Assembly (NCBI GenBank): GCA_013265495.1
Contig: MU057991.1
Location: 186,001-250,000, forward strand
Source: Vicugna vicugna
Taxonomy: Eukaryota
DNA length: 64,000 nucleotides
Reading direction: 5' to 3'
Shown: piece after piece, positions 1,118-20,828 of the stretch
Layout: each line of letters opens with the position of its first letter
How positions within the stretch are numbered: the stretch's first letter is position 1
The notes under the pieces: generated by a model
The model's input: only the letters and a program-made list of their open reading frames with translations
Told to the model about the DNA's origin: nothing
The model's database searches: none
Program-made: the position numbers and the translations under genes

Positions 1118-1118
<1 letters not shown>

Positions 1119-1164
<46 letters not shown>

Positions 1165-1165
1165 C
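1119..1165. repeat. (GT)n(GC)n microsatellite
   Basis: Directly visible. Confidence 0.95.
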
Positions 1166-1639: not shown

Positions 1640-1778
1640 TTATTTTTTTTAATTTATTAACTAGGAATGTTGATTGATTGATTGATTTACTTACTTAACT
1701 TAATGGAAGTACCGGGGATTGAACCCAGGACCTTGTACATGCTAAGCAGTTGCTCCACCACTGAGCTACGCCCTCCCC
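1640..1778 (-). mobile_element. tRNA-derived SINE (vic-1-like)
   Basis: ggggattgaacccaggacc...ccactgagctacgccctcccc. Confidence 0.8.
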
Positions 1779-2298
1779 TACTTTTTTTTTTTTTAAAGAA
1801 ACATCCAGACTGTTTTCCAGAGTGACCGTCTCAGCTCACGTTCCCATCAGCAGTGCGTGCGTGACCCAGTAGTTTTCTCTGCTTGCTCACCAGCACTTGG
1901 TCCTTGTCACTGCCTTTTTTTTTTTTAACCATTACTGTTGTAATAAACGTGTGGGGACATCTGGTTGTGGCTTTGTTTTGTGTTTCCCTGTTGGCTAATG
2001 ACGTCAAATGTCTTTTCAAGCCCTTATTTTCTGTCCGTGTGTTTCCTTCTTTGGTGAAATGCCTCTTGTGTCTTTTGTCTGCTTTCTGATTGAATTTCGT
2101 ATTTTTCTGTTTGCCAGTTAAGCCTGTGATCCATTCTGAGTTAGTTTTTTGAAGTAAAGTGTGCGGTTTGGGTCCAGGTTTATGTATTTACTTTCGCTGG
2201 TGGCTCTCCTAGGAGTGGCTCCAGCACCGTGTGTTGAAAGGCTGTGCTTCTCCCATTGACTTGCTGTGGCACTTTGTCAGAAATCACTTGCCCGTGGA

Positions 2299-2430
2299 GG
2301 GGAGGGCACAGCTCAGGTGGCAGAGCACGTGCTTACACGCATGAGGTCCTGGGTTCAATCCCCAGTCCCTCCTCTAAAAATACACATAAATAAAGCTTAA
2401 CACTTCTCCCTCAAAAACACAAAAAACAAA
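2299..2430 (+). mobile_element. tRNA-derived SINE (vic-1-like, camelid)
   Basis: ggggagggcacagctcaggtggcagagcac...gaggtcctgggttcaatcccc with A/B boxes and an A-rich tail. Confidence 0.8.
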
Positions 2431-3157
2431 AACCTACCGCCGCCAGCAACCAAAAACTCAGTTGCCCGTACTTGCGTGAGGCTGTTTCTGGGCTCTGTGT
2501 CCTGTTCCCTTGATCCGTGCGTCTGTCCCTGGTGCCAAGACCACAATGTCTGGGGTGTAATTAGATAGTAAGTCACTGGCGGGGTGATTCCTCTCACCTG
2601 ATTTCTTTTTAAGAAAAGAAGCTATTCTGATCCCTTTGCCAGTCCATTTAATGTTTAGAATAAGCTTGTCTTTCTACAGAAAAAAAAAACCCTGCTAGGG
2701 TTTGAGGGGAAGGACGTTAAACCTGTGTCCATCGGGGGGTGAGGGAGAACTGACGTCCTCAGCGTGCTGAGTCTTCTGATGCCCGGTGGCTCTCCTGTCC
2801 TTTGACGGCTCTCACTGGCGTTTTATGGCTTTCAGCCTACGCGTCCTTGTGCACACTTTGTTAGACTGACTAGTGTTTCGCTGTCTCGGTGACTGTAAAT
2901 GGTGCCCTGTCTTCATTCTGGTCTTCACGTGCTCATAGTTCAGTCTGAGGAAATACGGTTGGTTTTTACGGAGTGTCTCGGACCCTGTGACCTTGTGGAG
3001 CTCGCCCATCCTTCCTAGGGTTTTCTTCTCCCGTCAGGATTCTCTGTGGAGGCTGTCATACCGTCTGCAGATTCTCGGGCAGTTTCGTTTCTGTCTGGCT
3101 GATCTGTTTTTCCTTTCCTTCCCTTCCCCTTCCCCTTCCCCCTCCCCTCTCCCCTTC

Positions 3158-3223
3158 NNNNNNNNNNNNNNNNNNNNNNNNNNNNNNNNNNNNNNNNNNN
3201 NNNNNNNNNNNNNNNNNNNNNNN
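3158..3223. other. Assembly gap (66 N) within a (CCCTT/CCCCT)n tract
   Basis: Run of n characters. Confidence 1.
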
Positions 3224-4508
3224 CCCTCCCCTCCCCTCCCCTCCTCTCCTCTCCTCTCCTTTCCTCCTCGCCCTGGCTGGGGGGCTCTAGCTCTGTGTTG
3301 AATGGGAGGGTGAGGCGGACACCGCTGACTGTGCAGATGCAGAGGGTCCGCATTCAGTCTGTCACCGCCGAGCGCGCTGTCAGCTGTCGGTGCTCAGTAG
3401 ACGCTCCTCCCCAAGCTGGGGAGGCTCCCCTCCAGTCCTGGTTGTCCGATCGTGTGTATCAGGAATGGACGCTGAACTTTGTGCAGTGCTTCTTCTGCAT
3501 CAGTTGATATGACCATGGGGGATTCCGTGTGGTGGTGACTACAGTTGTAATACAACGAATTGCACTGATGTTCAAATACCTCAGCAGCCTTGTGTGTCTT
3601 GGAACAGTCATGTTGCAAACCTTTATCTATATATTGCTAAACTCTTTCTGCTGGACAAAAAGTCCTTAGGATTTTTTCATCAATATTCGCAACAGGTATT
3701 GCTTCAAAGATTGCTTTCCTTTTTTTTTTTTCTTACTGTCTCAGTCTGGTTTGGGGATCAGGTTAACGCTGACTTTATAAAGTGAGTTGGGAAGTGTTGC
3801 CTCCCCGTCTATTTTCTAGAAGCTATCGTACAGAACTTTTGTTAATTTTTATTTCAGCGTTTGGTAGAATTCTCTGGTGAAATCGTCTCAGCCTGGGGAT
3901 CACTTTTCCACGAATGTTAAAACCATGAGTTCAATTCCTTTAGCAGTCACAGGGCTGTTCTGATTACCGTCCCTGCTGGGTGAGCTGCAGTGGTCTGCGT
4001 GTTTCAGGGAGCAGGTCACCGATCCGAGCTGTAAGATTCACACCGTGCTGCTGGTCATGGTGTTTCCCACCCTCTTCGTGTCTGCAGGGTCGGTAGTAAA
4101 GTGACGTTTCTTTCCTGAACTTGTTAGTGTCTTTCTCTGTTTTTCTTTGTCACGCTTCCTAGAGACCTATTGATTTCATCAGTATTTTCAAAGAACCAGG
4201 TTCATCGCTGTGTGCCGGACACCGTCCACTGCTCACGTGTGGGGCCCGGAAACCCTCCGCACGGCGCCACCACTCAGGTGCCGTGTAGCCCCACTTACAG
4301 ATGCGGGAGCCCAGACACCGATGACGAGATGACTCACCTGGGATCTCACCGCCAGCAGGTGGTGGAGCCGCAGCTGCATCTCAGATCCCCACGCCAGGCC
4401 CCCAGACTCTGCAGTGGGCGAGCATCCAGAAGGAGGGACCACAGAGTTCTTGCCTTTGGTAAGTGGAGTGTGTGACAACATTCCTTCCTTCCTTCCCGTG
4501 ATGGGCAG

Positions 4509-4700
4509 CAGAGGGGCTTGAGAAAGCCTCGGAAAAACTCAGACACCGCTCATCTTTTTCTGCAGACGTGCTCTGCACCACCCCCAGGACACACGTCAGC
4601 AGGTACATCGGCCGCCTCCTGGAAGCCCGCCGGGTGGAGCTGGGGATGGAGGACCTGAGCGGCTTCACGCTGAAGTACAGGCAGGCTGGGCGAGGGGGAG
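4509..4700 (+). pseudogene. ADCY1: ADCY1 pseudo-exon 9
   Basis: QRGLR-ASEKLRHRSSFSADVLCTTPRTHVSRYIGRLLEARRVELGMEDLSGFTLKY (cf. RRALRTASEKLRNRSSFS...NRYISRLLEARQTELEMADLNFFTLKY). A 1-nt loss near 4525 puts TGA 4656-4658 in frame; a further 2-nt loss occurs near the donor. Confidence 0.88.
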
Positions 4701-4886
4701 GTAGGTGCCGGGGTGGGGTACCGGTGGGAGTCGGGGTGGCGGGAGGCTGGGGCCCTGGGACGTCCTGAGAACGTGGGTGCGGCCATTCTCAAGGCTGCAG
4801 TGGTTCTGGGCATCCTCGGCACCCTTGGGGAGAGCCTGGTGTCTCCGGGAAGCCAGGGCCACTGACGGGGGATTCCTGTCTTGCGG

Positions 4887-4983
4887 TGCCACCAGCTTCA
4901 GGGCGATGTTCCACCAGCGCCGTCGCCCTGGGCCTGATTGTGGCCGCCTCCCTCGGCCTCGTCTACCTGCTGATAACCCCGCA
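4887..4983 (+). pseudogene. ADCY1: ADCY1 pseudo-exon 10
   Basis: CHQLQG..STSAVALGLIVAASLGLVYLLITP (cf. YHQLQDEYFTSAVVLTLILAALFGLVYLLIFP); acceptor is cgg not cag; 1-nt deletion near 4906; gtaagt donor. Confidence 0.88.
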
Positions 4984-5881
4984 GTAAGTGCTGTTCTGGG
5001 TCCGTCGGTCAGAGGGCACCACGAGTCCCTTGCCTGTCAAGTTCAGGTTTCACTCCCGCAGTCACTCCCACGGTGCCCTGCCTCTGGGGCCAGCCTGAGC
5101 CACACGCCAGCTCTCCACTTCCCGGAGGGACTGGCTGTGTGAGCCTGCTGGCCGCTGTGCGGGCAGTTCCTTCTCAGCTTTTAATTTTAAATGGACTCAA
5201 TTCTGAGAGCGCTCCGTCCACAGCACACGCACCGTTGGTTTCCGCGTGCTTGTCGCCCAATTTCCCGAAACATTAAAATGAGAAAAAGCAGGCTCTGGGA
5301 AGGGGCACAGATATGATAATTTAAATAACGTTTAATCATTACGAGTCCAAGTGAGTTTGGCAGTGTTTGTTTTTAAGTAAGAAAGACCCCAGAAAATCTC
5401 CACTTTTTTCCCAGACATGCCGCTTTCTTAATAAACCTCCCGAGTGGAGTGACTCCTGGGAGTTTGCAGGAAACGTGTGGAAGCCACCCCCAGCCCCAGA
5501 CACCGGGCTCATAGAGGCCGTCTGCATGGCCCTACCTGGGGATCCAAGTTTTTCTAGGAAAGCCCTTTCCAGATGAGGCCCAGGCAGAGGACAGTGCCCG
5601 GCAGCCAGGTCTGTGCAGCTCTCGGCCTTCCTGCATGAGGAGAGCACCTCTCAGGCGCTCCCAGGGCTGGAGAGACCCTAGGGTGGCGGGGAGGTGAGGG
5701 GGGGCACAGGAGGGGCTCCTCTGTGAGAAGAGGACCAGCACGGGCAGCCCCCCAGAGGCCGCTGCTGCCTCCCTGGGGCTGGGACCCGGGTGGGGCAGGG
5801 GAGGGAGGGCGGGGCCCCGGGCATCCTCTGGGCACAGCTCACCCGGCCCAGCCCGCAGGGACTGTGTGTTGTCTGTCCTAG

Positions 5882-6023
5882 GGGTGTGGCTGCCTGCTCC
5901 TGCTGGTGTTCTGCATCTGCTTCCTGGTGTCCTGTGTCCTGTACCTGCTCATCCTCTGCTCCAGCCGTGTGTGTGTGTGTATGTGTGTGCGCGCGCTCCT
6001 TACCTGCTCATCACCTGGTCCAG
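5882..6023 (+). pseudogene. ADCY1: ADCY1 pseudo-exon 11, with internal repeat expansion
   Basis: LLLLVFCICFLVSCVLYLLI (cf. LLLLVFCICFLVACVLYLHITRVQ); 1-nt deletion near 5892; exon end repeated with (GT)n. Confidence 0.88.
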
Positions 6024-8109
6024 GTGTGTGTGTGTGTGTGTGTGTCCCTGTACCTGCCGATCACCTGAGCAGGCGGGTGCGTGGCCTCTGCCTGCCCTCT
6101 TGGCGGGACAGGGGGAGGCAGTTTGTCCCTCGCCCTCCTGGCAGGTGAAGAGCTGTCCATGGGGGAGAAGCTCACTAGGCCCATCCCGTGCGGGTGCCGT
6201 GTGGAGTTCTGGGCCGTGCCGTGTAGACACAGGGGTGGATGTGGATGGTGACTGAGTGAATGAACACAAGGAGTGACGCTGTTCTTTCCAAGAGGAGGGC
6301 CCTGTGCCCCGTCGGGTGACCGTGCCGCAGACGGGGGCCTCCGCACCCTCGAGGACTCCTCGTTGGCTCTGGAGCCAGGGTTGAGCCCGTGGCCCGGTGC
6401 TGCCCGAGGCTCCCGGGAGGGGGCTCTGTCCTTGTCCTGCACACCTTCCACACCTCCTGAACCTCCTTTTCCGAATGTCCCGTTTCCCCACTACGCCCCC
6501 AGTTGGCACATCTGACAGACCCAGGGTTTTCTTTGTACAGTTGTTGAAAAGAGCTACTCGAGAAGGCTGAATCTAGTTTCATTTACTTAAATTCTTTCTT
6601 ATTCACAGGTACCCTCTTGATTGAAGTTGAGAGAAAAATGCCGTTTGAATAAACAGCCACAGTGCGGCTCTTTGATTTCATAGATGGAGCGGCCTCGGGT
6701 TCAGTCAGCTGAGATTTCCCGCTTCAGGTAACCCGGCTTTATTCACCTGATGTCAGCTGAAAGCACAGCAAGTAGATGCTGGCTTTTAAGGCCTGTCACC
6801 CTCGTCCCCAGTGCTGGGGACCCGTGTGCCCGGTGGACGAACGGTTCTCCTGCTGGAGGGGCCCGGGCTCCGCCAGCCCCGTTCTTTCTGAACGTCCACT
6901 CGCCCTCCTCGCCCTCCCTCATCGGCCTGCGCGTTGTCCCCGGTGGCGGGGCAGGAGGCCGCCCGGGCGGAGCGCACGGTCCCCACGGCAGGCGGCTTCA
7001 GTCCACCCGGCCGGCGCGTGCCTGTTCAGGGGCGGCCCACATGCTCAGACACTGCCCTCCCCAGGCCCTGGACGTGGCAGCGGGGCTCTGAGCTCACCAC
7101 AGGGCTTGTGCGGAAGGCTGTGGGGCCCGGCGACGGGAGGCGCGTGGTCGGCAGGACCCGGCTGGGGAGGAGGGGGGCCGGCAGGCGGGCAGAGCTGTCC
7201 TGCAGGGCCCAGCGCGCACGGAGGGAGGCGGGTGCCGGGGGCACGGCTGTGCCCGCGGCTGGGTTAGGTCCACTGCAGCCGCGCGTCCTGAGAAGGCCTG
7301 GGAGTCACAGACGGCCTTCCTCTGTGCCATAGGAGTGGCCACAGCCAGGGCGTCAGGGCCGGCGTGGCAGCTCCAGGACCACCTGGGCCCTTCACCCACC
7401 CCACTGGCTCCCTCGTCACCAGGGGCTGCCAGCTCCAGGGCCTTTGTGAAAGGGACGGGAATCAGAGCTGATGTTCACAAAGGCCTGGGAGCGGGGCCTG
7501 GGACACCACTGGCTCCACTGAACATTCTTAGAACAAGAGGAGGGGCTGGTGAAGCAGAGGCGTGGGATCCGTGTCGGTCCCGCAGGCCAGGTCGCTGTGA
7601 CCAGAGGAGGCGCTCTGCGGGACTGGGGGCGGAGGGCGCGGGAGCAGGCGGCTGGAGGGTCCGCGGTGAGGGCTGGAACGGGGCAGGGCGGCCCCGAGCA
7701 GACGCGAGGGCCCAGCTGAGGCTGGGCGGCCTGCCGAGGGCGCGCCTGCGGCCGTGCTGGCCCTGGGTAGGCACGTGGAGGGACCAGGGCTGAGCGGGCG
7801 GGGCGGGGGAGGAGGAGCGGTGAGGAGGGCGCCAGAGGGGCGCACACTGGACTGGCCCCTGGGCACCTGCAGGTTCAGGTGCGCTTCGCTCTCGGGGGCG
7901 CCAGGCCTCCCTGGTTCCCGGGGACACGAGCGTGGTGTGACTGGGACGGCAGCCCCCTCATCTTTCCCCCCCAGGCCCGATGCTCATGGTCATATTTCAG
8001 CCTCATTTTCCCATCTCCTGTCCCAGTCACCCCTTTGTGGTTTTCTGAGCAAAGGCAGAGGGGATCCTTCAGGAGGGTGAGTCCTAACTCGGGCTTCCTC
8101 CCCTCCCTG

Positions 8110-8626
8110 TGTTACCGAGTCCAGACTCGTTCCTGCTTGCCGCACGACAGGCCAGTAAATCGGAAGACGAGGTGTTGGGGCAAGGAATAGCGACTGTATT
8201 TGGGAAGCCAGCAGACGGACAGGATGGCAGACTGCTGTCCTGGAGAACCATCTTCCCCAAGTCAGAATCCAGGCTCCTTTGATACTAAAAAGGGGAGGGG
8301 GTGTGGTTGGCTGTTGCAAACTTCTCTGTGCAGGAATCCTTTGTTTCTGCAGCTGTCCCGGGGCCAGGTCACGGTGCCTCTGCAAACCTCCAGCAAAACA
8401 AAGGTTATTTTCTGTTCTGCAACTTGTTACCTTTATAGGAGTGCGAAGGTGTCAACATCCTTCAAGGGCAGAGCCCCGACGGGCTGTCCTGTCTGTTTCA
8501 GGCTAAAGGCAACGCTGTTTCAAAAAAGGTGCAGAGTCCGCAAGACTGAACCCAGAAAACAGGGCACAGGGTTAAAGCCAAGGGAACAGGTCTCCCGTGG
8601 AGTCAGGTTTGTCCTTTTCTGTTACA
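8110..8626 (-). mobile_element. ERV1-type solo LTR, family B
   Basis: TG...CA ends, 4-bp TSD cctg; homologous to 38652-39150. Confidence 0.88.
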
Positions 8627-10523
8627 CCTGCTGCCCTGCAGGGCTGGCCCCCCAGCCCTCCCCACCCTGGACCCCGAGCGCCGCCTGCAGGGGGTGGGGA
8701 GGCAGGGAGGGGGTGTGCAGCGCTGGTGAGATAAACTAGACACGGCTGATGGATGGACGGTGACTGGAAAGTCAGAAAACCTCTAGGTTTTCCCTCGTTG
8801 GGGCGGGAGAGGGAGCCTCAGCAGAGGGCGGTGACCCTGGAGACAAACCCAGCCGCTCCTGGTCCCCGTGTTACAGCGTGTCCTACCTCGGCCCCAGGGG
8901 CTCCCGCGGTGTATGTGTGTGGGACTGAGTTCATTTGTGTAGCATAGATGAAGTCAGTGTTTTTTAAATTTCAAATTGCAACTCACTAGGGCTGTAAATT
9001 TTTTTTTTTTTTGGTGAGTTGTGAACAAAAGCAATGGAATAGGAATGGATGAAAATGTGAGTCAGTGTCAGTCACCCACAGGGTGTCCTGGAATCTGCTC
9101 CAGCTGTGTGTCTCTGTGTGACTGTGATCTACAGCATGGTTCTTGGCTTGTCGCCCGGCTGGAAGCCTCTGAATGCCCTGCGCCCCCCCCCCCCACGGGA
9201 GCAGGTGGTCCAGGGAGCCGGGCCTCCCTTCTCCCGGCTCCCAGCACACGCAGGGCAGGAGCCCAGCCGGCCAAGCGGAGACGGGCGTGCTTATGCGGTC
9301 GTCCCATTTGCCTATGCTGTTCAGAGTCCACGGCCACAGGCCTCGGGCACAGGGGGGCCGTCGCTCAGCGGCCACCTGCCTCTCCCGACCGTTTGGCGCA
9401 GCTGCGGTTTCTTCGTGTCGTGTCCCGGTCACGGCACACTCCACAGCTTCTCTCCCTGCAGGGCTCAGGCTCTCGCTCCCGATTTGCCCTGCGTCCCCCT
9501 GCCTTGTGGCCTCGTCCTGTTGGGGTCCTTCGTGAAATTCAGCGCCGGCGGTGAACGGGCCTCTGGCCGTGGGGTCCAGGACGCCTACCCTGACATTGCC
9601 GCCGAGTCGCCTTGAGACAGTGACAGCGAGCTTTGAGGACGTTGCAACAGCTCACACCCCACTGGGCTGCCTTTAACTAACTGTGGGCCCCATTCTGCGG
9701 GCGTTCTCCATTGTTCATGTCCGACCAGCTGCCTTTTTTTGGTGTTGTGACAAATTAGTCCTCGAGCCGTCACTTGGTCTGCATGCGCGCCCGTCTCGGC
9801 CCCCTGTGTGAGCTGAGCAGCCCGCCCTGTGTCCCGGTCTGCGGAGGGAGGGAGTGAGGCTGGTGGGGTCTGGGCCCCGGTTCCTGACCTGCAGAGCAGG
9901 GAGTGTAATGACCCCGACTCCACGGATAACCGAGTACGTGGCCCAGGGCACCCTCACCCTCGCTCGGGGGTGCTTTCTGTGAGTCCCGCGGTCTCTGTTT
10001 TTCTTTCCGTTTCCAATGTCAGAAGTGTGATTCTAGGACCTTCCGACTTCATCCATGAAATCATCTGTTGAGTGTTGCAAAAATGTATTTAAATAGGCTT
10101 CAAGTAAAATTTCTAGTAACTTAACAAAAGTTGTATAAAGCCTGTGTGAAGAAAGTGATAAAACCTAACGTGTCCACAAGAAGAAACAAATAAAGGGGAA
10201 TTTTACCATTTCTGAGACAGAAGGGCGCAACAGAATGAAAGTGTCAAGTTAATCTACTCAGGGAATTTCGGTGCCAGTCAGTGTCACGGGGCGGAGCGGA
10301 TGTGGGAGGCGCTGCTCTCTTCAATTTAAAGATGTCACTTTTCAGGTTTCAAATTTTGGCAGTGTTTTCACCTGGAAGGTTAATTATATGAAAACAGTCA
10401 GAAAACGTGTGGCGGATGAGAGCGTTCTGATGCTTCTCGCTGTTCTGTGCTGTGAATGGTCTACTGTGGCCACCAACGACTTTGTAAAAGAGGCTGTGTT
10501 TTCAATAGCGTTTTATGGTTCAG

Positions 10524-10613
10524 TGTTTTGCAGGGTGCCTGGCGATTCAGACCCGCACCGTCCTGTGCATCTTCATAGTGGTCTGAGTCTGCTCCGTGGC
10601 CCCAGGATGTGCG
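10524..10613 (+). pseudogene. ADCY1: ADCY1 pseudo-exon 12 with in-frame stop
   Basis: CFAGCLAIQTRTVLCIFIVV*VCSVAPGCA (cf. CFPGCLTIQIRTVLCIFIVVLIYSVAQGCV); TGA 10584-10586; cag/gtgag boundaries. Confidence 0.92.
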
Positions 10614-11074
10614 GTGAGCATGTCTGCAGGGGCAGGGCGTGGTGGGAGCCGTGAGGTGCAGGGATGAGGGGCACCTGCAGGAGCCGCACTGGAGGTCTGA
10701 CCCTAGGGTGGCGAGGGGTCAGAGATGGGCCTGGGGTGCCCCAGGAAGCCAGGGCAAGGAGGACGTCACCCGGGGGGGAGATGTGATCGGCCCTACGTGG
10801 TGTGCCGGGGACAGGAGCCGGGCAGAGAGATAGGACGGAGAGGTGGTAGGGAGGAAGAGGATGGACCTAAGTGGTTTAGGAGGATGGCAGGGGCCTCGTG
10901 CCCCCCAGCCCAGGACCTGGGGCTCCGCTTCTGGTAGTGAGGGGCCTTGAAGGGCCACGAGCAGGCGGGAGTGTCCGAGGCCCAGCTGGTGGCACTGGCG
11001 GAGTGGGTGGAGCGGGAAGCTGGAGAGGGCGGGGGAGCAGGGGGTGCTGGGTGGGGCCCCTCCGTCCCCTCCAG

Positions 11075-11328
11075 GTGGGCCGCCTGCCCTGGGCCTGGGG
11101 CTCCAGCCCCAACGTGTCCCTGGTGGTCCTGCCGTCTGGGGGCCGCGCCCCAGTGCTGCCCGCCCCACCCTGCGAGTCTGCACCGACGCCCTGCTTTGGG
11201 GCCTCGCGGGCACCCTCCCGCTGGCCACACTCCTGCGGGTCTCCTCCTTGTCCAGAGTGATCCTGCTCACGTGCTCACCGCGTCCTGCTCCTGGTCCTGG
11301 AGTCCAGCGGGCACACGAAGGCCGTGGG
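11075..11328 (+). pseudogene. ADCY1: ADCY1 pseudo-exon 13
   Basis: VGRLPWAWGSSPNVSLVVLPSGG...PCESA / ALLWGLAGTLPLATLLRVSSLSRVILL / LVLESSGHTKA, spread over different frames; donor appears to be gc; 3' boundary approximate. Confidence 0.88.
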
Positions 11329-11589
11329 GCAGGCCCGTGGGCGGGCGTGCGAACCGCCGCCCGGGAGGCCCTGTGTTCCGGTCTGTGGCTAGAAGCTCGT
11401 TAGTGCCAGGCGTCACCCCCTCTTCACTTGGGCGCCAGTTCCAGCAGGTCCTTGGGCTTCTCCGGGAGGTGTGGCTCTCAGCCCGGGTCGGTCCCAGGCG
11501 CCTCTGGGGGAGTCGCGTCTGAGGGGCCCTCCGTGCACGGGCCCTGTGTTCTGGGCACTGACGTGGGTTTTCCTCCTCCTCCTCCCCAG

Positions 11590-11717
11590 CGGGCGGCAGC
11601 GCCTCCAGGCGCAGCTTCGAGCCGATCGTGGCCGTCCTGCTGTTCTCACGCGCGCTGGCCCCGCGCAGCCGGCTGGTGGACGTCAAGCTGCGGCCGGACT
11701 GCGTCTGGGCCACGCGG
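11590..11717 (+). pseudogene. ADCY1: ADCY1 pseudo-exon 14
   Basis: SRRSFEPIVAVLLFSRALAPRSRLVDVKLRPDCVWATR (cf. SGRSYEPIVAILLFSCALALHARQVDIRLRLDYLWAAQ); donor gcagga. Confidence 0.88.
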
Positions 11718-14700
11718 GCAGGAGGAACCCCCTGCTTCCTTGGGGGCCGGCAGCTGGCAAGGGAGTCTCTTGGGCGGGGTGCGGGTGGGGGCTCCCGGTT
11801 AGACGCCGGCGGCCGTGTGGGCGGCACCGTCGGGGAGGAGGTGCCGGGGGCAAGGAGCAGGCCCGCAGGGCGGCAGGAAGGGGGCAGCTGTGAACCGTGT
11901 CTGGCAGTTGGAGTTCAGCTGTCTGGCCAGCAGTGAGCGCCCTGTCCCCAGAGGCGTTCTGGCAGGAGGGTGACGGTACAGACGTGACAGCAGGTCTCCC
12001 CAGCCAGTCGGATGCGGAGAGAGAGGAGAGAGTTTATCACAGGGATGGGCCCGTGAGGTCGCGGAGGCAGGGCAGTCCCGCGGCCTGCTGTCCGTGGTGA
12101 GAGGACAGAGGTGCCAGGGTGTACGTGTTCCACTTCGAGTCCAGAGGTCCGAGGAGCAGAGCCCTGCTGTCCGGGGGCGGGGGGAGCTGGACACCCAGCT
12201 CAGGCAGAGCGCGAATGCACCCTCCTCTGCCTTGTCCTTCTGTTCAGGCCCCAGGGGACTGGGGGACACCCGCCCACCGAGGGCGGCTTCTTCCCTCCGC
12301 CTAGCGGCTCAGAGACTGACTCTCCTTACGCACCTGCTGGGACGCAGCCGCAGTGACGCTCACCAGCCCTCTGGGCGCCCCGTGGCCCTGGCGAGCTGAC
12401 ACCAACCAGCAGCCCCTCCCCGCGTGCTCGGCCCGGGCCTGGCGCCCCGTAGGTGCTCCGCACAGCTGAACACCCTGCAGACGCTGCGGTACCGACGTCC
12501 GGCAGTCCCTGGTCCCACTGGGGCCCCAGGACAGCCGCTGCTGGGCTGTCCTCTCCGTGGGAGAGAGGCAGGGCGGGGCAGGGGCGTGTGCCACCTGCGG
12601 TGGGGACAGAGGCAGTGGCCGCACCGATGAACACGACTGCTCACCTCTAGTTCAGTAAGCCTGTAAAAGACTGACGCTGGCTAAGCGTCACTTGCCCCTT
12701 TGTGTGCAACAGCTTCACTGAGATGTGACTCACAGGGAACCCCGGCAGTTCTCGGAGTCGTGCAGCCATCCCCAGTCAGTTGTAGTGTATTTTTCCTGCC
12801 CCCCCAAGACCTCATGTCCGTTTGTAGTCAGTCCCCATTTCTAGCCGCACCCCCCAGCCCTGAGCCACCTCTAATCTGCTTTCTGTCCCTGAGGACTTGC
12901 CTGTTTCTTTCATTCTTCAGCCTGTCGTCTTCAGTTAGTGCCCGTTCTGCACAGACTGGCCCCCTGTGTGTGGCCAGTGGGAGCCCCGAGCCAGGCCTTG
13001 GCGGGAGAGTCCCCGATTCTGAGGGGCCCGGGCCCGGCGCTGTCCTCGCTTCATACGTGGATTCTGGATTCCGGGAGGGCAGGGGGCTGCTGAGATCTGA
13101 GCGTCTGGCTTGCTCTCCATGGGCGGGGGCGCCTGGGGGGTGTCTGTGCCGTGTGGGGCGCAGGCGGGGCCTCTAGGGAGGGTGCACGGGTGAGGGCATC
13201 TGGTCCTGACCCAGCCCCTGCTCGGGGCCCCTGGGCTGCTGCCCTCATCAGTGCCAGGGCCAGACCACACCCCGTGAGTGTGTCCACACGATGCCCGGCC
13301 AGGCTGCTCGGGGAGCCTGGGCCTCTCCGGGCCTCCTGGAGGCTGAGACGTGACCGAGGGAGGGTGAGGGGCTGCTGCTGGGGAAAGGGGACATGGCGTA
13401 CGGCAGAGGAGGAGCTTTGCAGAGACCCCCAAGCGGGAAGGGTGGCCCGGAGACCGCCGAGGAGTCCGGGGCCTCCCTTCTCTCTGGGCCGGGCTGACCG
13501 CCAGCCCCGGGGCCAGGAGGGCAGGATCCCATCCCTGTCTGGGAGGCGGCCTAGCAGTGGAGTGTGAGGGGGCAGGGGGCAGGGCTCCCACAGTGACGGG
13601 AGCCACCAGGAGGGCGCCTTGGGCGTGGTTGGCCTCTGGGCGGGGGGTGGAGGTGGGAGAGGTCTCAGGCGTGGAGCAGAGGGCAGAGGGCACGCTCCAG
13701 ACGGGTGAGGTCAAGGGAGCGGATGAGCATCTGAAAGGTGGTGCGGGTGTAGGACGACCTCAGGCTGTGTGTTACCCAGGGCACCACATGGAGGGTCCTC
13801 ACCCCAGACCTCGGGGGCCGGGGGGCAGTCTGCACAACTCGGGACAAGGGGGGCCACCAGGCAGGATTCATGACCGTCGGCCGAGGGACACGGCCAGCCT
13901 GCAGTGCCCAGGCTGCGAGGGACCTGGCCACGCTCTCCCCCTCCCTCCCGCTCGTGCTGGTGCTGCTGCCTGGCCGAGCCCAGCCAGAAGCAGGCGGCAG
14001 GAGAACCTGCAGGGAGCGTCCCCTGGATGGTCCCGCGGTCGGAGCAGACCCCAGCGGGAGAGACCGGCACACGCCGGCCGGGTCCTGGAAGGGGACTTTG
14101 GCCACTGCAGTTTGCCGCAGCCACGCCAGGTGAGGGAGGACAGCCTGTCTGTGGTGAGCTGTGCCTCTGCACTTGGTCTTGTCCGGCTCTGGCCGGCCCC
14201 ACCGTGAGGTGAGCTTTCCGGGGAGCTCAGGGCCACAGGGACCCGCTGGGTCGCAGGGGAAGGGCTGCTGACGCTGCACACACTGACCTAGTTTTCCAAG
14301 GATGTGCAACAGCAAACGCCTCTTCCCTGTAAACACTGCAAGACAAGAACATTTCTAGACTTGGCCCGTTCGCCTCCCCGGATTCTTAAGCCCACCAGGC
14401 AGGCATCCGAGTGCCCGGGCAGCCGCCGAGTTGCCAGACCAGAGCCTCGGTGGGTTAATTATTTATTGAGACCTGGCTGGTCCTGCGGCCCTGAGTGAGC
14501 ACACGCGCTTCCCTCCCGATGGCGCCTTCAGCCTCTTCATCTGTAACTATCGGAATGCTTTTTGCTGCGATGATTTTTCCTCTGAATTCAGTGCATAATC
14601 ATGAGGGCTGTTACTCTTTTGATTGTATTAGGACGGGTTCTTTCTCTACAGGTGATGTTTGTTCTCAGGGTAATTCTCTGCTGTGCAGCTGCCATTCCGG

Positions 14701-17443
14701 GGGCGCTGGGAGGGAGGGCCGGCACGGATGGGGCGTTCCCCGTGGTTGGGCCGAGCCGAGGCTGCTGCGCCTCCTTCTCCAGCCGCTTCCCTTCGCGAGC
14801 TTCCTTTGGCCACGCGCGCGCCGGTAAAGTCATCCTCAGGGCCGTGGGACGTGCGCGCCACCCTGCCCGTGGCCCTGACTGCACGTCCGAAGGGCCGTGT
14901 GTGGACTTCATGCTGTTGTCTGTTCCCGGCCCTGGCGTCTCCTCTGGGCCGCTGGGGCGGGTGCATCTCCGCAGACACCCCCCCCGCCACCCCCCGGGGA
15001 CGGTGCTTCGGGCTGAGTCACAGCGGTTCCGCGGCGCAGGGCCAGGGGAAGGGCCGCAGACCAAAACGTCGGCGAACGTTCCCCACTCGAGGGAAACCAC
15101 ACGTGATTATGCAGGAAGAGAGCTACTCTGACGGCCCGTAAATCTGTCACAGTTGTAAATAAATTGAAATAAACTGAAACAAATGTAAAAAGACAATTGA
15201 AAGAAATAAACCAAGAGCCAATGCTTTTGATCACAAAGGGATCCACCAAGATTTTTTTAAGTTGAATCATATCCAGTTACACCAAATGCATTAAAATATC
15301 ACGACCATTATCATTTTCGAGGAAAAAAATATTTGTGCCACTAACAAATAAAACAAAACCTGCTATTTTAAAAACCTTGTTTCCTTTCTCTTTCTCTCAT
15401 CCTTCGATAAAACCACCTTGTGTGTTTGTCAGGGCACACGTGTCACAGGAAGACAATGGCACATGGCTTAGGAGCCGCCCCCGGCCCCTCCCAAGGCCTG
15501 GCTTCCCACACGGCTGTGTCCCCGGCTGCGACCTCGGCCCCGTCCCCGGCCACGTCTCCTCCTGTCTGCAGGGCCCACGGTCACCGGCGCCGGGCCCTGG
15601 GGCTGCTGGCGCCCTCCTCGGCCCTCAGCCGCCGCCGGCCCACCCGCTGCGAGGAACAGGATGCAGCCCACCCTGCGTCGGTCTCCATGGTGACGGATGC
15701 CCCCCGTGCCCGCCCGCGTTGGTATCCCCGAGGACGTGCTGGGGGCGGCCTGGGGCCCCTCACGTCCTCCCTCGGGGACCCTCAGCTGCTCGCTCTTCAC
15801 TCGCAGGATCAGGACGGGCTCCGGCAGCAGGACGCCGACCAGCTCGACCGCTCTTATGACAGCAATCGGCGACACCCCTCACGTGTCACAAGGTGTCGTG
15901 CCCCCTCCTCGCCCCGTGACACGTAGGGACGGCGCCTCTGTGAACGGGCGTCTGACACCAATTCACGGAGGGGATGCGCGCGGGTTCACGGCCACGAGGT
16001 GGGACCCAAACCAGGTGTGCCGGCCTCCACGTGGGGGTGGGGGTGGGTACCCGGGCTGCCGGCCAGCAACATGGCATCACGGTGACATTGTCACCGCACT
16101 CAGGAGCGTGCTGTCCCCGTAAGGCTGGCACACGCTTACGGATGTTCCCGAAACGGAGCTCGGTCCCCGGCTCCGATCGGGCGCTGGGTGTGGAAGCCAG
16201 GGAGGGCCATGGGCGGCCATCACCCCTGGGGGCCAGCGTCCGACCCGGGGCTGCCCTCAGCGGCTGTCAGCAGCTCCCCTGCGGCTGTCACTGCGGCCAC
16301 TGGGTGGGGCTGTCACCGCTGGTTTCCTTAGTCCCTGCCAGGCCCTGAGCGAGGAGGCCAGCCAGCCGGGACCCAGGCTGCACCTGCCTCTGCTCTGCCT
16401 TGTCCCCCTGCTCAGACCTGCCGGCCTCCGTCCTCTGCCCCAGGAGGTCGGTGCCCAGCTGAGCGACCCTGGGGCTGGGCCTCCCGCCACCAAGTCCCCT
16501 GCAGCGTTCCGCGTGTCTCTGTGCCCCGAGAGACAAGGAGAATCCAGAGCACGTCGGAGCTCACAGAGGGGCCACCGCGTGGCTCCCGGCGTTGCCGGTG
16601 GGCCTGGTGTGCCCTGGAGGCACGCCGGAGGTGTGGGGGCCCCGTGTGCCCTGGGAGTGGGCCCGCGCCCCAGGAAGGGCTGCTTCAGGCATCGGGTCCC
16701 CAGAACATGGCTGGGTAGACCCCGGAAATGGGGGCTGGCCCCTCGCTGTCTTTGGAAAGTTCCAGCTGATCGGGGTGACGATTCATCCAGAAGTTGGTGG
16801 GTTCTCTGGGCCCCTAACGTTGATCCGGTCACTCTGCCTGGTGGGGGCTCGGAGATGGGCGCAGTTGGCGGTGAGTTTGGATAATTGGAAAGAAACGTGT
16901 TAAAGGCGTAATGACCCAGAAGCCGTATTAAAGACGGTGAGTCAGACATTACTCAGGACTGTCGTGCAGGTGCAGGGACCCCTGCGGTGGGGTTTCGCGG
17001 TTGGGGAGAGCGACGAGGCTCGACCCCAGATAAGCAAGGGCAAGTGAGCGTTCACAGCCCAGGGCAGAGGTGGGGCGGTGGATGCAGAGCTGCTAAGAGG
17101 AGGCGCCAGGGGTGAGGGCTTCTGAGCTGACGGAACAGGACTCACGCTGAGGACAGGCCGGGGTGACCGGACGGCACCTGGGTGGCAGCTGAGGGACCCG
17201 GTCAGATGTCTGGGGTGATGGGTGTCAGGGAGGGGGGGTGTCCAGGCGAACTGGCTCAGCAGGCTTCTTGCTACAACTAGACAACGTGGAAATGAACAGG
17301 GATGCCCCGAAGTCAGGGCCCAGCTGGGAAGAGGGTCCAGGCTTTGGACCAGGGGAGGATCTTGCCAGGGGGCGGGTTGTCGAGTGAGTGAAGGCAGCTG
17401 GGTGGGTGGGCGCGTGGCTGCTGGGGGATCCCGCCCTCCCCGG

Positions 17444-17557
17444 GCAGAGGGGGAGCAGGACAACGTGGAGACGGTGAAGCTGGACAAGGGGGTCGTCTTC
17501 AACCTCCTGCCGGCCCCCATCGCCCAGCACCTCCTCACGTCCAGCCCCCGGAACGCG
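17444..17557 (+). pseudogene. ADCY1: ADCY1 pseudo-exon 15
   Basis: AEGEQDNVETVKLDKGVVFNLLPAPIAQHLLTSSPRNA (cf. AEEEREDMEKVKLDNRRILFNLLPAHVAQHFLMSNPRNM); acceptor cgg; gtgag donor. Confidence 0.9.
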
Positions 17558-18546
17558 GTGAGCATGCGGCCTGCGTGGCAGCGGCTCCCCGGGCACCGAG
17601 ACCCAGCGGGTGCTCCCCCAAGCCGAGCTGGCCTGCTGGGGGCTGCAGGGTGGCAGCTGGAGGTCTGACCAAGAGGGACCCCCCGCCGGCCGCCTAAAAT
17701 CACAAAGGGTGGCCATTTCGACGCCCTCAGCTGCACCAAGGATGGGAGGCCCTCTCTGCCCACCCCCAAGGGCAGGGCAGAGGCTGGGCCATCAGGAGGC
17801 CCCTGGGTGCAGGATGGACAGGTGCCCAGAACTGCTGCGTCCTCCCCTTTGATCCTGGAAGAGAGTGTAGCATTCACCGTCCCGACGAGGCGGGAGATCT
17901 GGCTTCAGGAACCCACACTCCAGGGGGAAAGGGCGATTCACAGCCCGCGTGTTCTGGGTGGCGCCCCCTCCTGGCTGAGTTTGTGTGGACGGCCTGGCCC
18001 TTCCTGCCCGGCCCTGCCCGCCTGGCCCTGCCCGCCAGGCTGCAGGGCTGGTGGTTCATTCTGTCCTCCGTGCTCAGTGCGATCGGGGCCATGGCCTGGA
18101 GGGGAAGCTCTAAAACCAGCCCAGCCGCCCAGCACAGGGCTTGGAAAAGCCGACTCAAATATAAAGGGGCTCAGGTTGGGGTTTTAGGTCCCAAACACAC
18201 AAACCCCAAGACTCCTCTTGACCAGCTCTGGCCTGACGTAGCTCCCGGGCTCATCTCTCATCCTGCTGGGCCTGGCGGTGTCTGGAGCGGTTTGTCTTCC
18301 CACAACAGTGCGTCCCTCCCTGGTGCCTCCCCCCTCATGGGGGGCTCTGCTCTCACCCGTGAGCTGGACGACCTCGCGGCGTCCTGGGTGCTCCGAGCCC
18401 CCTCTCGGTGTGGCGCGGGGTCCCAGCACGTCCTTGCAGCCCTGGCAAGGGTTCCCGGGGGGGGGAAGCTGTCTGCAGCAGCAGCCCTGAATGCTGCTCT
18501 GGTCACCGCTTCGGCGCTGGTGGCTGACCTGACCTCTGCCCCCCAG

Positions 18547-18676
18547 GACCTCGACTGGCATTCCTGCTTGCAGGTGGGGGTCATGCTGGCCTCCAGCCCC
18601 AACTTGAGCTGATGACAACGACGTGGGGGTGGAGTGTCTGCGCTCCCGAAACGAGATCATCGCCGACTTGGATGGG
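18547..18676 (+). pseudogene. ADCY1: ADCY1 pseudo-exon 16
   Basis: DLDWHSCLQVGVMLASSPN / DDNDVGVECLRSRNEIIADLDG (cf. [41 protein letters not shown]); about 17 nt missing, TGA at 18610-18612. Confidence 0.92.
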
Positions 18677-19274
18677 GTAAGGGCCGCCCCACTGCCCTGA
18701 CTCCCTGGGGCCTGAGGGCGCCTGGCAGTGCAGCCCCCAGTGGCTGTGATTGTGCCTGCTCTCTGCGGATGGCAGGGGGTGGGGCACATGCACTGTGTCT
18801 CCTTGGGAGTCCCAGCCGACCTTGGCCTTTGAGGAAGGGGCTTTCCCTGGGGTTGGGGAGGATGGGTGCTGGGCTGGGAGGCAGGATGCTAGCGCCTGTG
18901 GCCTACCTAGGAAATGCTGGGCTCAGGTGGGTGGCCTCACCTAGAGGATGGATGGCGGGCCCCTCTGTACCCTCCACCCCGAGTCCCGTGTCTGTACGGG
19001 TCTCCCTCCCTCGCTGGGTGGTTGTGGGCTCAGGTGTGAGAGACGGTGTGTTGTGCATGTCTCCCCTCCCAGCTCCTCTTTTAAATGCCTTTGCAGGCGC
19101 CCCTGAGGCTGGGTTCCTCAGTTCAGCCCCAGAACTTGTCCTGTAGCCAAATGAGGAGGACACATTGCTTCCCAGCACGTGCCCATCTGCTCCGCAGTGG
19201 CTCCTGGTGGCTGTACAGGGCAGTGACTTGTCTAAAATGTCATGTAATGTTTCACGTTTGCATTTCAAACAAGG

Positions 19275-19373
19275 CTCATAGACACAGACCTTTACAAGGA
19301 CCTGGAGAAGTTCAACACCGTTGGGAGGACCTACGAGGCTGCCGTGGGGCTGGCGGCCACGGCGGGGACCCAG
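19275..19373 (+). pseudogene. ADCY1: ADCY1 pseudo-exon 17
   Basis: LIDTDLYKDLEKFNTVGRTYEAAVGLAATAGTQ (cf. LMEKDFYKDIEKIKTIGSTYMAAVGLAPTSGTK); KIKTIG motif destroyed; AG displaced by 1 nt; gtgagt donor. Confidence 0.92.
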
Positions 19374-19853
19374 GTGAGTGCTGGCCGGCTGTCCAGGTGT
19401 GCCCCGCTCAGGACTGGGTCCCAGCTCTGCCCCCAACTGATCAAGGGGCCTGCTGGCTGCACTGAGGCCAGCAAGCTCTCAGCCCTGCTCGTTCCCACTC
19501 ATTTCCCCGAGCTTCGGGGCCTGGACTCCAGCTCTCTTACTGAACATTTAGGGCCTTCCCCACGGCCGTCCCCCACCTCCCCCTTCACAGCACAGATGGA
19601 GCCTCAGGGGACAGATCCCTGGCCCTGGGTGGGGGCACAGCCCTCCCCGCTGCTGGGGACCTTCACTCAGGAGAACGGGCCTCCCCCAGGGACGGGGTCC
19701 CCCTCACTCGGCCCAGACCTGCCCTCGTGCACAGAAGGGGTCCTGGCCTGGCCCTGCGCCGACCCCCTGGGTGTCCTGGGGGCCAGGCGGGGGCCGAGTG
19801 GCCCAGCTCCAGGCTGGGATCGGCCCTGCCCCCTCCCCCGGTGCCTGGACAAG

Positions 19854-19861
19854 TGACATCA
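19854..19861 (+). promoter_or_regulatory. CRE-like element TGACATCA upstream of the candidate ORF
   Basis: One mismatch from TGACGTCA; about 70 nt upstream of the first ATG. Confidence 0.35.
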
Positions 19862-20048
19862 CGAACTCCAGAGCCCAGCTGGGGGAACCATTTCCTAGAA
19901 CCCGGCTGGCCTCCCCTCCCCCGCCCAACAGATGGTCGTCAGGGACCTGTTTACCTGGAGACGGAACGCCCCGCAGGGTTCCGAGCGGCCAGTGGTGACA
20001 CAGAGGACCCTGGCCTCAGAGGCAGAGAGCTGTGGGGCCCTGGCAGCC

Positions 20049-20597
20049 ATGGGGGGCCTGCTCCCTGCCCCCTGGGCCCCGTCCCCCCGGATGCTGGAGC
20101 GCCTGGGGGGCGCCCTGCTGCTGCTCTGGGAGAGCCTGACCCCGGTGCTTCCCTGGGGGGCCCTGGTGTGCGTGGCAGGGCTGCTGTTCCTAATACACAG
20201 ATGGTCCTCCTCCCACAGCGGGGAGACCCCAGGCGAGGGGCGCTCTCCCGACGACGGGGACGCCGTGCCAGGGGCTGAGGGTGCCGGGGACCCCGCGGGA
20301 AAGGCTGGCGGGAGCCCGGCGCCCCCGCCCCCCCAGGGGCGCCGGGAGCCCTCCGGCCCCCGAGCACCAGCGCGCCCCGGGGAGCAGCCTATGTGTCCAC
20401 GATGCCGGGAGCTGCTGGCCCAGTACGTCGCCACATGGAGGCAGCGAGTCACAGAGAAGGAGGAGGAGAAAGCAAGGCTGCTGGAGGCGATCGCCAGGAG
20501 GGAGCGGGCCCTGCAGGACACAGTCACCCACCTGGAGGCCCTGGCTGCGCACCTGCTGAGCGCCCCCCGCCGGCCCCCCGCTCTGACCCGGGTCTGA
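20049..20597 (+). CDS. Candidate intronless gene: 182-aa membrane-anchored coiled-coil protein (221 aa if the ATG at 19932 is used)
   Basis: gcagccATGG Kozak; hydrophobic segment LGGALLLLWESLTPVLPWGALVCVAGLLFLI; Pro/Gly linker; CPRC; charged heptad helix RQRVTEKEEEKARLLEAIARRERALQDTVTHLEAL; downstream ATTAAA. Confidence 0.55.
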   Translation: MGGLLPAPWAPSPRMLERLGGALLLLWESLTPVLPWGALVCVAGLLFLIHRWSSSHSGETPGEGRSPDDGDAVPGAEGAGDPAGKAGGSPAPPPPQGRREPSGPRAPARPGEQPMCPRCRELLAQYVATWRQRVTEKEEEKARLLEAIARRERALQDTVTHLEALAAHLLSAPRRPPALTRV

Positions 20598-20822
20598 GCC
20601 CTGCAACCACCGCACCCCGTCCGTGTGGGTGTCCAGGGGGTGCGCGACCATCCAGCGCTCCCTCGTTTGTCCTGGTGGTGCCTCGAGGCCACAGTGTCTC
20701 CTGGGAGTGGGGCGTTGTCCCTCGCCGGGAGAGTGTTTAAATGTCCATGTTTTCTCTAAAGTTCCCACTTCCTCCATTGAAACCCTTAGGAATGTAGCGT
20801 ATAGTGTTGTATTTGGGTGGAG

Positions 20823-20828
20823 ATTAAA
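20823..20828 (+). terminator. Poly(A) signal ATTAAA for the candidate ORF
   Basis: Ends an AT-richer ~225-nt 3' UTR-like stretch; followed by GT-rich sequence. Confidence 0.45.

What the first reader, a model, noticed from the sequence alone, without database searches (positions are those of the whole stretch)
4509..19373. ADCY1 is a decayed pseudogene here: possible lineage loss of the neuronal Ca2+/calmodulin adenylyl cyclase
Seen: nine intron-separated ADCY1 exons carry independent lesions. These include frameshifts in exons 9, 10, 11, 13 and 16, in-frame TGA at 10584, TGA at 4656 and 18610, AG-to-GG acceptors (4885-4886, 17442-17443) and GT-to-GC donors after exons 13 and 14. The C2 motif KIKTIGSTYM has become KFNTVGRTYE. 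There are too many lesion types for homopolymer sequencing error. Established: the second Lys of KIKTIG specifies ATP binding in adenylyl cyclases. ADCY1 loss causes the barrelless phenotype in mice and DFNB44 deafness in humans, and the enzyme functions in pain sensitisation and plasticity. Inference: if no intact copy exists elsewhere, this is a unitary loss of a normally conserved brain gene.
Basis: partly seen in the sequence, partly recalled or inferred. Interest (0 to 1): 0.85.

Follow-up and report, generated by a model that had tools for sequence, protein, structure and literature searches.

The report
Decayed partial duplicate of ADCY1
The broken ADCY1 exons in this window are an old, incomplete spare copy of the gene, one of many in this camelid genome, while the full-length gene sits on another contig, so this locus does not show that the animal has lost the enzyme.

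Summary
Window 4509-19373 carries nine intron-separated ADCY1 exon remnants (exons 9-17, residues about 538-942 of a 1134-aa reference), and 9 of 9 carry lesions.

The reading as a unitary gene loss does not hold. The window is part of a 32-kb partial duplicate (exons 5-17, no promoter, no exons 1-4 or 18-20) in contig C1196. Introns align to the parent, with a noncoding K2P distance of 0.19. It ends 67 bases past exon 17 against an unrelated inverted repeat, and an EGFR-like kinase exon lies 44 kb further on.

At least 11 contigs hold copies of the exon 15 region. Copies range from 74-83% through 90% to 93-96% identity.

The only full-length, 20-exon ADCY1 is on contig C7489, 238 kb from a RAMP-family gene.

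One caveat matters. In this assembly that locus has two in-frame TGA codons (S481*, R599*) and a change at the catalytic arginine. Each lies in a patch identical to a younger pseudogene copy. I could not tell whether these are real gene conversion or an assembly artefact, because the read-mapping call was lost.

The parts
1..19439 (+). ADCY1-derived duplicated segment. It continues upstream of the window to C1196:173061. It is homologous, introns included, to the full-length locus at C7489:5237478-5270351 (intron 4 to 67 bases past exon 17).
   Evidence: blastn, (73-85% identity per block). K2P is 0.19 over 19494 noncoding sites.
4509..4700 (+). Exon 9 remnant. It has 1-nt and 2-nt deletions, and the shifted frame meets a TGA at 4656.
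4887..4983 (+). Exon 10 remnant. The acceptor is AG to GG at 4885-4886, and there is a 1-nt deletion.
5882..5964 (+). Exon 11 remnant. It has two 1-nt deletions, and the donor is GT to CC at 5965-5966.
10524..10613 (+). Exon 12 remnant. It has no indel but an in-frame TGA at 10584-10586 (TTA in the parent).
11075..11328 (+). Exon 13 remnant. It has three 1-nt deletions, and the donor is GT to GC at 11329-11330.
11591..11717 (+). Exon 14 remnant. It has one extra base at its 5' edge. The GC donor at 11718-11719 is ancestral, because the parent also has GC.
11825..16967 (.). A 5.1-kb insertion in intron 14. It is absent from the parent (C7489:5267878 joins 5267883) and from copies C4396, C9594 and C2069. 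It is shared in part with copies on C2204, C11330, C1124 and C10509. Its origin is unknown.
   Evidence: Pfam matched 0 of 42 ORFs.
17444..17557 (+). Exon 15 remnant. The acceptor is AG to GG at 17442-17443, and there is a 3-nt in-frame deletion.
18547..18676 (+). Exon 16 remnant. It has 16-nt and 1-nt deletions, and the shifted frame meets a TGA at 18610. The deletion is not shared by copy C10509b.
19275..19373 (+). Exon 17 remnant. The acceptor is AG to GG at 19273-19274. KIKTIGSTYM has become KFNTVGRTYE, so the adenine-specifying Lys is now Asn.
19439..19452 (.). 3' breakpoint of the ADCY1 segment. Homology to the parent ends here and homology to the repeat arm begins. Parent and arm share the short motif CAGGGACCA at this point.
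19444..23807 (+). One arm of an inverted repeat, 93-99% identical to C1196:155416-162834 on the other strand. It belongs to a different multi-copy family (C6935, C2989, C6950, C8258, C10306, C3241, C2791 and others). The ADCY1 segment lies between the two arms.
   Evidence: No named family was found.
63253..63411 (-). EGFR-like kinase-domain exon. It is genomic context only and not part of the pseudogene.
   Evidence: Pfam PF07714, E 2.8e-12. PDB EGFR chains match at E 1e-28 over 53 residues.

Best explanation
Window 1-19439 is the 3' two-thirds of an old, non-processed, partial duplicate of ADCY1, made by segmental duplication. About 33 kb of the gene, from intron 4 to just past exon 17, was copied within the camelid lineage to a site downstream of an EGFR-like gene.

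The copy lacked the promoter, exons 1-4 (the N-terminus, the first membrane domain and the start of C1) and exons 18-20 (most of C2). It could therefore never encode a cyclase, and it has since decayed neutrally. It shows frameshifts, stops, lost splice sites, a 5.1-kb insertion and a strong AT-to-GC drift.

It was itself re-copied, giving a family of at least 11 ADCY1 fragments of several ages. The ancestral full-length gene is elsewhere, on contig C7489.

Shown directly: the homology including introns, the boundaries, the lesions, the copy family and the existence of the full-length locus.

Inferred: the timing (camelid stem lineage), the mechanism of the breakpoint, and that the copy is not expressed as anything useful.
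For: - Colinear DNA homology, introns included, runs from C1196:173061 to window 19439 against C7489:5237478-5270351.
- Exons are nearly as diverged as introns (K2P 0.165 against 0.19), which indicates no constraint.
- 9 of 9 exon remnants are damaged.
- The genome-wide scan gave no PF00211 match on C1196.
- tblastn found no match to residues 943-1134 in the window. Upstream of the window only remnants of exons 5, 7 and 8 were found.
- Homology to the parent stops at 19439 against an inverted-repeat arm of another family.
- 11 contigs, counting this one and the parent, match the exon 15 region. 9 places on 8 contigs match the exon 12-14 region.
- A subset of copies (C2204, C11330, C1124, C10509) shares the 5.1-kb insertion, so duplicates were themselves duplicated.
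- A full-length ADCY1 with 20 exons, 88-100% identical per exon to the pig reference (81% in the C-terminal exon 20), lies at C7489:5177805-5281504. It is 238 kb from a RAMP-family gene.
- The window copy carries 2 of 6 camelid-specific residues (S653, S783) and the non-camelid state at 1 (V684). This places the split on the camelid stem.
- At aligned sites the copy is 60.8% GC against 54.4% in the parent. Sites that are AT in the parent and GC in the copy number 1976, against 714 the other way.
Against: - The protein tree does not place the window copy. Its branch length is 0.52 and no supported clade holds it, so the timing rests on only 6 informative columns.
- Copy counts come from searches that score only the best candidates. 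Many copies lie on small contigs that may be pieces of one copy, so the number of distinct loci is uncertain.
- The origin of the 5.1-kb insertion and the identity of the flanking repeat family are unknown.
- Whether the fragment is transcribed was not tested.
Confidence: 0.92

Rival explanations
1. Unitary pseudogene. This locus would be the lineage's only, ancestral ADCY1, decayed in place.
For: The lesions are many and real. No fully open ADCY1 reading frame was found anywhere in this assembly.
Against: - Only exons 5-17 are present, and homology ends abruptly against unrelated repeats.
- A complete 20-exon locus with near-perfect exons exists on C7489, beside a RAMP-family gene.
- The window lies beside an EGFR-like exon instead.
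- The window copy is 19% diverged from that locus, yet shares camelid-specific residues with it.
Confidence: 0.02
2. Assembly or sequencing artefact. The lesions would be errors in a GC-rich, hard-to-sequence copy of the real gene.
For: The region is 60-67% GC. The assembly is fragmented into 12405 contigs and contains N runs.
Against: - Divergence from the parent is spread evenly over 19494 noncoding and 1634 exonic sites. It includes 10.6% transitions and 6.0% transversions, not only indels.
- There is a 5.1-kb insertion shared with other copies.
- Other copies carry different lesions at the same exons.
Confidence: 0.02
3. The fragment is not inert. It would be transcribed, for example as a non-coding RNA or as part of a chimeric transcript with a neighbour, and it could supply sequence to the parent gene by gene conversion.
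For: Younger copies do share 100%-identical patches with the parent locus, which suggests sequence exchange within the family.
Against: - At 19% divergence this old copy is a poor partner for conversion.
- Exons show no more conservation than introns.
- Three acceptors and two donors are lost.
- No expression data could be read.
Confidence: 0.05

Closest known systems
Non-processed (duplicated) pseudogenes produced by segmental duplication, including partial gene fragments in duplication-rich regions of mammalian genomes
   Same: It keeps the parent's introns and exon order and covers only part of the gene. It has no promoter of its own, decays neutrally, is flanked by other duplicated sequence, and has been re-copied into a multi-member family.
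   Different: I found no report of an ADCY1 fragment family in any mammal. Four full-text searches turned up nothing on camelid ADCY1 copies; beyond the listings and abstracts I read only one passage, in PMC10808162. The copies span three age classes, which points to repeated duplication of one gene region.
ADCY1, the Ca2+/calmodulin-stimulated membrane adenylyl cyclase (class III cyclase with domains C1 and C2)
   Same: The sequence is derived from it. Exons 9-17 encode the end of C1b, the second membrane domain and the first part of C2. The window copy is at most 70% identical to any ADCY1 in the 406-column alignment (best: Camelus dromedarius, 388 columns), read with X at the breaks.
   Different: It lacks exons 1-4 and 18-20. 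9 of 9 exon remnants are damaged, and the KIKTIG Lys is replaced by Asn. The genome-wide scan gave no PF00211 match on this contig.
Gene and pseudogene pairs that exchange sequence by gene conversion, such as CYP21A2/CYP21A1P (named from memory, not from a call)
   Same: In the full-length locus the two nonsense codons and the catalytic Arg change each sit in a 250-330 bp patch that is 100% identical to a younger pseudogene copy. The surrounding sequence differs by about 5%.
   Different: This concerns the parent locus and the young copies, not the window's old copy. The direction of transfer is unknown, and it is not shown that the patches are real rather than an assembly effect.

Membership tests
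Functional ADCY1 gene | A complete open reading frame across about 20 exons, encoding two membrane domains plus C1 and C2 | tested here: not met
   Only exons 5-17 are present in the contig, and exons 9-17 in the window. Frameshifts or stops occur in exons 9, 10, 11, 12, 13, 14 and 16.
Functional ADCY1 gene | C2 catalytic and specificity residues. These are the Lys of KIKTIG and the Asn/Arg of the NxxxR motif. Their roles are recalled from AC structural work, not taken from a call. | tested here: not met
   KIKTIG reads KFNTVG. The exon carrying the Asn/Arg motif (exon 19) is absent from the copy.
Non-processed duplicated pseudogene | Retains the parent's introns and flanking intron sequence | tested here: met
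   Colinear blastn blocks cover the introns at 73-85% identity.
Non-processed duplicated pseudogene | A parental gene exists elsewhere in the same genome | tested here: met
   C7489:5177805-5281504 holds 20 exons. All 18 introns examined (2-19) have working splice sites, 17 GT-AG and one GC-AG; the intron 1 donor was not inspected.
Non-processed duplicated pseudogene | Disabling mutations and no selective constraint | tested here: met
   9 of 9 exon remnants carry lesions. Exon K2P is 0.165 against 0.19 for noncoding sequence.
Processed (retrotransposed) pseudogene | Intronless, with a poly-A tail and target-site duplications | tested here: not met
   Introns are present throughout.
Unitary pseudogene (lineage-wide gene loss) | Sits at the ancestral, syntenic position of the gene | tested here: not met
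   The window lies beside an EGFR-like exon. The full-length locus lies 238 kb from a RAMP-family gene. That RAMP3 neighbours ADCY1 in human is recalled, not tested.
Unitary pseudogene (lineage-wide gene loss) | No other copy of the gene in the genome | tested here: not met
   There is a full-length locus plus many partial copies.

The most novel reading that the evidence does not exclude
ADCY1 really is inactive, or is being inactivated, in this South American camelid, but at the other locus. The syntenic full-length gene on C7489 carries two nonsense codons (S481* in exon 7, R599* in exon 9) and R995C plus a Gln in place of the catalytic Arg in exon 19. Each lies in a patch identical to one of the gene's own young pseudogene copies. 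This suggests that a gene region which kept duplicating has poisoned its parent through gene conversion.

The parent lineage shows only 6 private amino-acid changes, against about 27 in copy C7991. Any such inactivation would therefore be recent.
Probability: 0.35. Interest if true: 0.75.

Novelty: new member of a known kind. Interest (0 to 1): 0.4.

Why it matters
For the finding as written, the result is corrective. A striking claim, the loss of a conserved brain and cochlear cyclase, rested on a spare fragment and should not be passed on from this locus.

Two things remain of interest.

First, the ADCY1 region has been duplicated again and again in this camelid. Copies sit at roughly 75-83%, 90% and 93-96% identity, and they drift strongly towards GC. 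This makes a tidy natural series for studying duplication hotspots, biased gene conversion and pseudogene decay.

Second, such a family is a trap for annotation, read mapping and gene-loss screens, and it may be a real hazard to the parent gene. The only full-length ADCY1 in this assembly has two stop codons shared with its copies. If reads confirm them, the loss of Ca2+/calmodulin-stimulated cyclase in South American camelids would bear on hearing, cortical map formation and pain plasticity. If reads refute them, they are a documented example of paralogue-driven assembly error.

Tried and rejected
- **Read support for the stops in the full-length locus.** The look-up of sequencing runs listed 24 runs, and the best held 0.49-0.57 of the sampled words. 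Neither expression nor the reality of any lesion could be checked against reads.
- **Fetching more copies for a family tree.** There is therefore no DNA tree of all copies.
- **Protein tree.** It did not place the window copy because of its long branch, so I used shared derived residues instead.
- **Identity of the flanking repeat family.** Pfam matched 0 of the 22 ORFs of 100 aa or more lying within window 19444-23807. Over the whole set outside the ADCY1 part, 2 of 150 ORFs matched, one a kinase exon and one a sub-threshold RhlB match at window 243-770. A protein search gave 1 unnamed hit. The atlas gave nothing usable, best score 0.75.
- **The 5.1-kb insertion.** Pfam matched 0 of 42 ORFs, and no tandem array was found.
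- **Uniqueness of the EGFR side of the window.** The search was swamped by an interspersed repeat and was not informative.
- **Earlier scan notes.** Nothing on ADCY1.
- **Literature.** Four searches found no paper on camelid ADCY1 copies or loss. In PMC10808162 I read one passage, about a goat ADCY1 copy-number variant, which is not relevant.
- **Codon counts.** The rows for exons 18-20 used a wrong frame and I dropped them. I re-assigned three changes polarised to C7489 (348, 826, 839) by hand, because the Camelus protein shows C7489 is ancestral there.
- **Per-residue table.** I dropped by hand runs of differences that come from tblastn reading into introns (388-390, 536, 652-662, 938-941, 1003-1021).
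Full report
**What is in the window.** The window is G000:C1196:186001-250000 of a 2.03-Gb, 12405-contig assembly. It is GC-rich, at 59-68% over 4-36 kb.

tblastn with a 1134-aa ADCY1 reference (P0012, Phacochoerus, obtained) gives ten colinear + strand matches from 4517 to 19373. They cover residues 541-942.

I defined the exons on the full-length locus of the same genome and aligned each to the window. This gave nine remnants, exons 9-17, at 4509-4700, 4887-4983, 5882-5964, 10524-10613, 11075-11328, about 11591-11717, 17444-17557, 18547-18676 and 19275-19373.

All 9 of 9 are damaged:
- Frameshifting indels occur in exons 9, 10, 11, 13, 14 and 16.
- Exon 12 has an in-frame TGA at 10584.
- Acceptors have changed from AG to GG before exons 10, 15 and 17.
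- Donors are lost after exon 11 (CC) and exon 13 (GC).
- KIKTIGSTYM has become KFNTVGRTYE.

There is one correction: the GC donor after exon 14 is also GC in the full-length locus, so it is an ancestral GC-AG intron and not a lesion.

**It is not the only copy.** The exon 17 stretch has three other matches in the genome. Two of them (C7489, C7991) read an intact KIKTIGSTYMAAVGL.

A 10-kb query from the window matches long stretches at 74-78% identity on C7991, C7489, C4396, C10509 (twice), C2204, C2069 and C9594. It also matches shorter stretches at up to 81% on C1124, C11570, C6145, C9926 and C3885. The next 9 kb adds C11330.

Counting only places that overlap the same piece gives these totals:
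- 9 places on 8 contigs hold the exon 12-14 region.
- 11 contigs hold the exon 15 region.

Both totals count the window and the parent. These are lower bounds in one sense, because the tool scores only the best candidates. They may be over-counts in another, because small contigs may be parts of one copy.

**Extent and borders of this copy.** Homology to C7489 runs, introns included, from C1196:173061 to C1196:205439 (window 19439). This matches C7489:5237478-5270351, that is, from intron 4 to 67 bases beyond exon 17.
- Upstream of the window there are decayed remnants of exons 5, 7 and 8.
- Nothing in the window matches residues 943-1134.
- The genome-wide Pfam scan for the cyclase domain gives no match on C1196.
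- A 5.1-kb insertion (window 11825-16967) interrupts intron 14. The parent and copies C4396, C9594 and C2069 lack it. Copies on C2204, C11330, C1124 and C10509 share parts of it. Copies were therefore themselves copied.

At window 19439-19452 the ADCY1 homology gives way to a different sequence. That sequence is one arm of an inverted repeat, with window 19444-23807 being 93-99% identical to C1196:155416-162834 on the other strand. The parent and the arm share the motif CAGGGACCA at the join. The arm belongs to another multi-copy family that I could not name.

About 44 kb further on, on the minus strand, lies an exon that matches the EGFR kinase domain.

**Age and mode of decay.** Over 19494 aligned noncoding sites the K2P distance to the parent is 0.19. 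Over 1634 exonic sites it is 0.165, so the exons of the copy are not protected.

The copy is richer in GC at aligned sites, 60.8% against 54.4%. Sites that are AT in the parent and GC in the copy number 1976, against 714 the other way. This fits GC-biased conversion at the new site, although without an outgroup the direction is inferred.

A protein tree of 17 rows (window copy and C7991 read with X at breaks) groups the Camelus proteins with C7489 and C7991 (support 90/98). It groups C7489 with C7991 (91/90). The window copy is left on a long unresolved branch.

Of 6 columns where all camelid ADCY1 sequences differ from 11 other mammals, the window copy does the following:
- It shares the camelid state at 2 (S653, S783).
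- It has the non-camelid state at 1 (V684).
- It has a third state at 2.
- It is unreadable at 1.

I read this as a duplication on the camelid stem, after the split from other artiodactyls and before the split of Old and New World camelids. This is an inference from few sites.

Copy C10509b does not share the exon 16 deletion or the exon 17 changes, but it has lesions of its own. Most of the decay therefore followed the copying.

**The full-length gene.** C7489 carries all 20 exons in order over 104 kb (5177805-5281504). Per-exon identity to the pig reference is 88-100%, falling to 81% in the C-terminal exon 20, whose best database matches are Camelus ADCY1 at 93-96%.

Splice sites are in order for the 18 introns examined, introns 2-19 (with boundaries refined by eye). 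I did not inspect the intron 1 donor. Exons 1, 3 and 4 were found only there, although one search ran with a stricter filter.

A RAMP-family gene lies 238 kb upstream, one of 3 such matches in the genome. From memory, RAMP3 neighbours ADCY1 on human 7p, and EGFR lies about 10 Mb away on the same arm. On that basis C7489 is the ancestral site and the window copy an intrachromosomal transfer. I did not test that synteny against another genome.

**An unresolved complication.** The C7489 reading frame is not open in this assembly.
- Exon 7 reads TGA where Camelus and pig have Ser481.
- Exon 9 reads TGA where they have Arg599, a CGA-to-TGA change.
- Exon 19 reads GACRPQYD...ASQMDS, where all references have GARRPQYD...ASRMDS. 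From memory, the second Arg is the catalytic Arg of the C2 domain.

Each of these lies in a patch that is 100% identical to a younger pseudogene copy, while the copies otherwise differ by 4-7%:
- exon 7 with C7305 (95.5% identical overall);
- exon 9 with C7991, about 260 bp;
- exon 19 with C7991, about 250 bp (sliding identity).

C7991 is plainly dead. It has stops at 735 and 869 and frameshifts in exons 6 and 13.

Only five copies of the exon 7-8 region exist: C7489, C7305 at 94%, C7991 at 93%, C4396 at 83% and C1196 at 76%. No better ADCY1 is hiding in this assembly. Further copies at 90-95% cover intron 4 (C11056, C4515, C10538, C1583).

Measured against the Camelus protein, C7489 has 6 private amino-acid changes and C7991 about 27. 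This is after I removed intron read-through artefacts by hand.

In exons 5-17, changes polarised with the old copy give 7 synonymous and 4 replacement changes on the C7489 branch, once three CpG or GC-biased parallelisms are re-assigned. The C7991 branch has at least 8 and 17. So C7489 was under purifying selection for most of the time since C7991 arose.

The shared stops are therefore best explained in one of two ways. One is recent sequence exchange between the gene and its copies. The other is paralogue reads shaping the consensus during assembly. I cannot tell which.

No ADCY1 protein closer than the Camelus models (96% to exon 20; no camelid protein at all for exon 1) appeared in two database searches with C7489 exon 20 and exon 1. 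This is weakly in line with the gene being unannotatable there. An earlier scan note calls this genome a South American camelid, and the 93-96% identity to the Camelus proteins agrees with that.

**Verdict.** The interpretation as a unitary loss is not supported by this locus. What is here is an old, partial, non-processed duplicate pseudogene, a member of an unusually large ADCY1 fragment family.

Whether the animal has a working ADCY1 depends on two codons of another contig. That needs reads, which I could not lay.

Noticed in passing
G000:C7489:5248234-5248375 (L006) and 5260195-5260389 (L008): The only full-length ADCY1 locus of this assembly has in-frame TGA codons in exon 7 (Ser481) and exon 9 (Arg599). 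Each sits in a patch 100% identical to a younger pseudogene copy (C7305 and C7991 respectively).
   Followed up: partly
G000:C7489:5276252-5276376 (L009): Exon 19 of the full-length locus reads GACRPQYD...ASQMDS instead of GARRPQYD...ASRMDS. The change includes the catalytic Arg. The stretch is identical to copy C7991 over about 250 bp.
   Followed up: partly
window 19444-23807 and C1196:155416-162834: An inverted repeat, 93-99% identical, brackets the ADCY1 fragment. The left arm carries about 2.8 kb of extra sequence. The arms belong to a separate family with copies at 66-86% identity on at least 13 other contigs (C6935, C2989, C6950, C8258, C10306, C3241, C2791 and others). A 232-aa stop-to-stop open frame (182 aa from its first Met) with a coiled-coil-like end lies at window 19899-20594, and it has no named relatives.
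   Followed up: partly
window 63121-63441 (-): An open frame contains an exon that matches the EGFR kinase domain (53 residues, E about 1e-28 against PDB chains). I did not check whether this is the genuine EGFR gene or another duplicated fragment.
   Followed up: partly
window 8110-8627, 31387-31688, 38659-39152 and 48600-49157: Interspersed repeats of about 500 bp have very many copies genome-wide at 82-87% identity. They swamp whole-genome DNA searches launched from this window.
   Followed up: no
G000:C7305:12173-36956: This 65-kb contig holds ADCY1 exon 6 and exon 7 copies, followed 20 kb later by an exon 2 copy. That order does not fit a simple colinear copy, and may mean tandem or rearranged duplicates.
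   Followed up: no
window 3158-3223: A run of 66 N, either an assembly gap or a withheld stretch, lies inside the duplicated intron 8.
   Followed up: no
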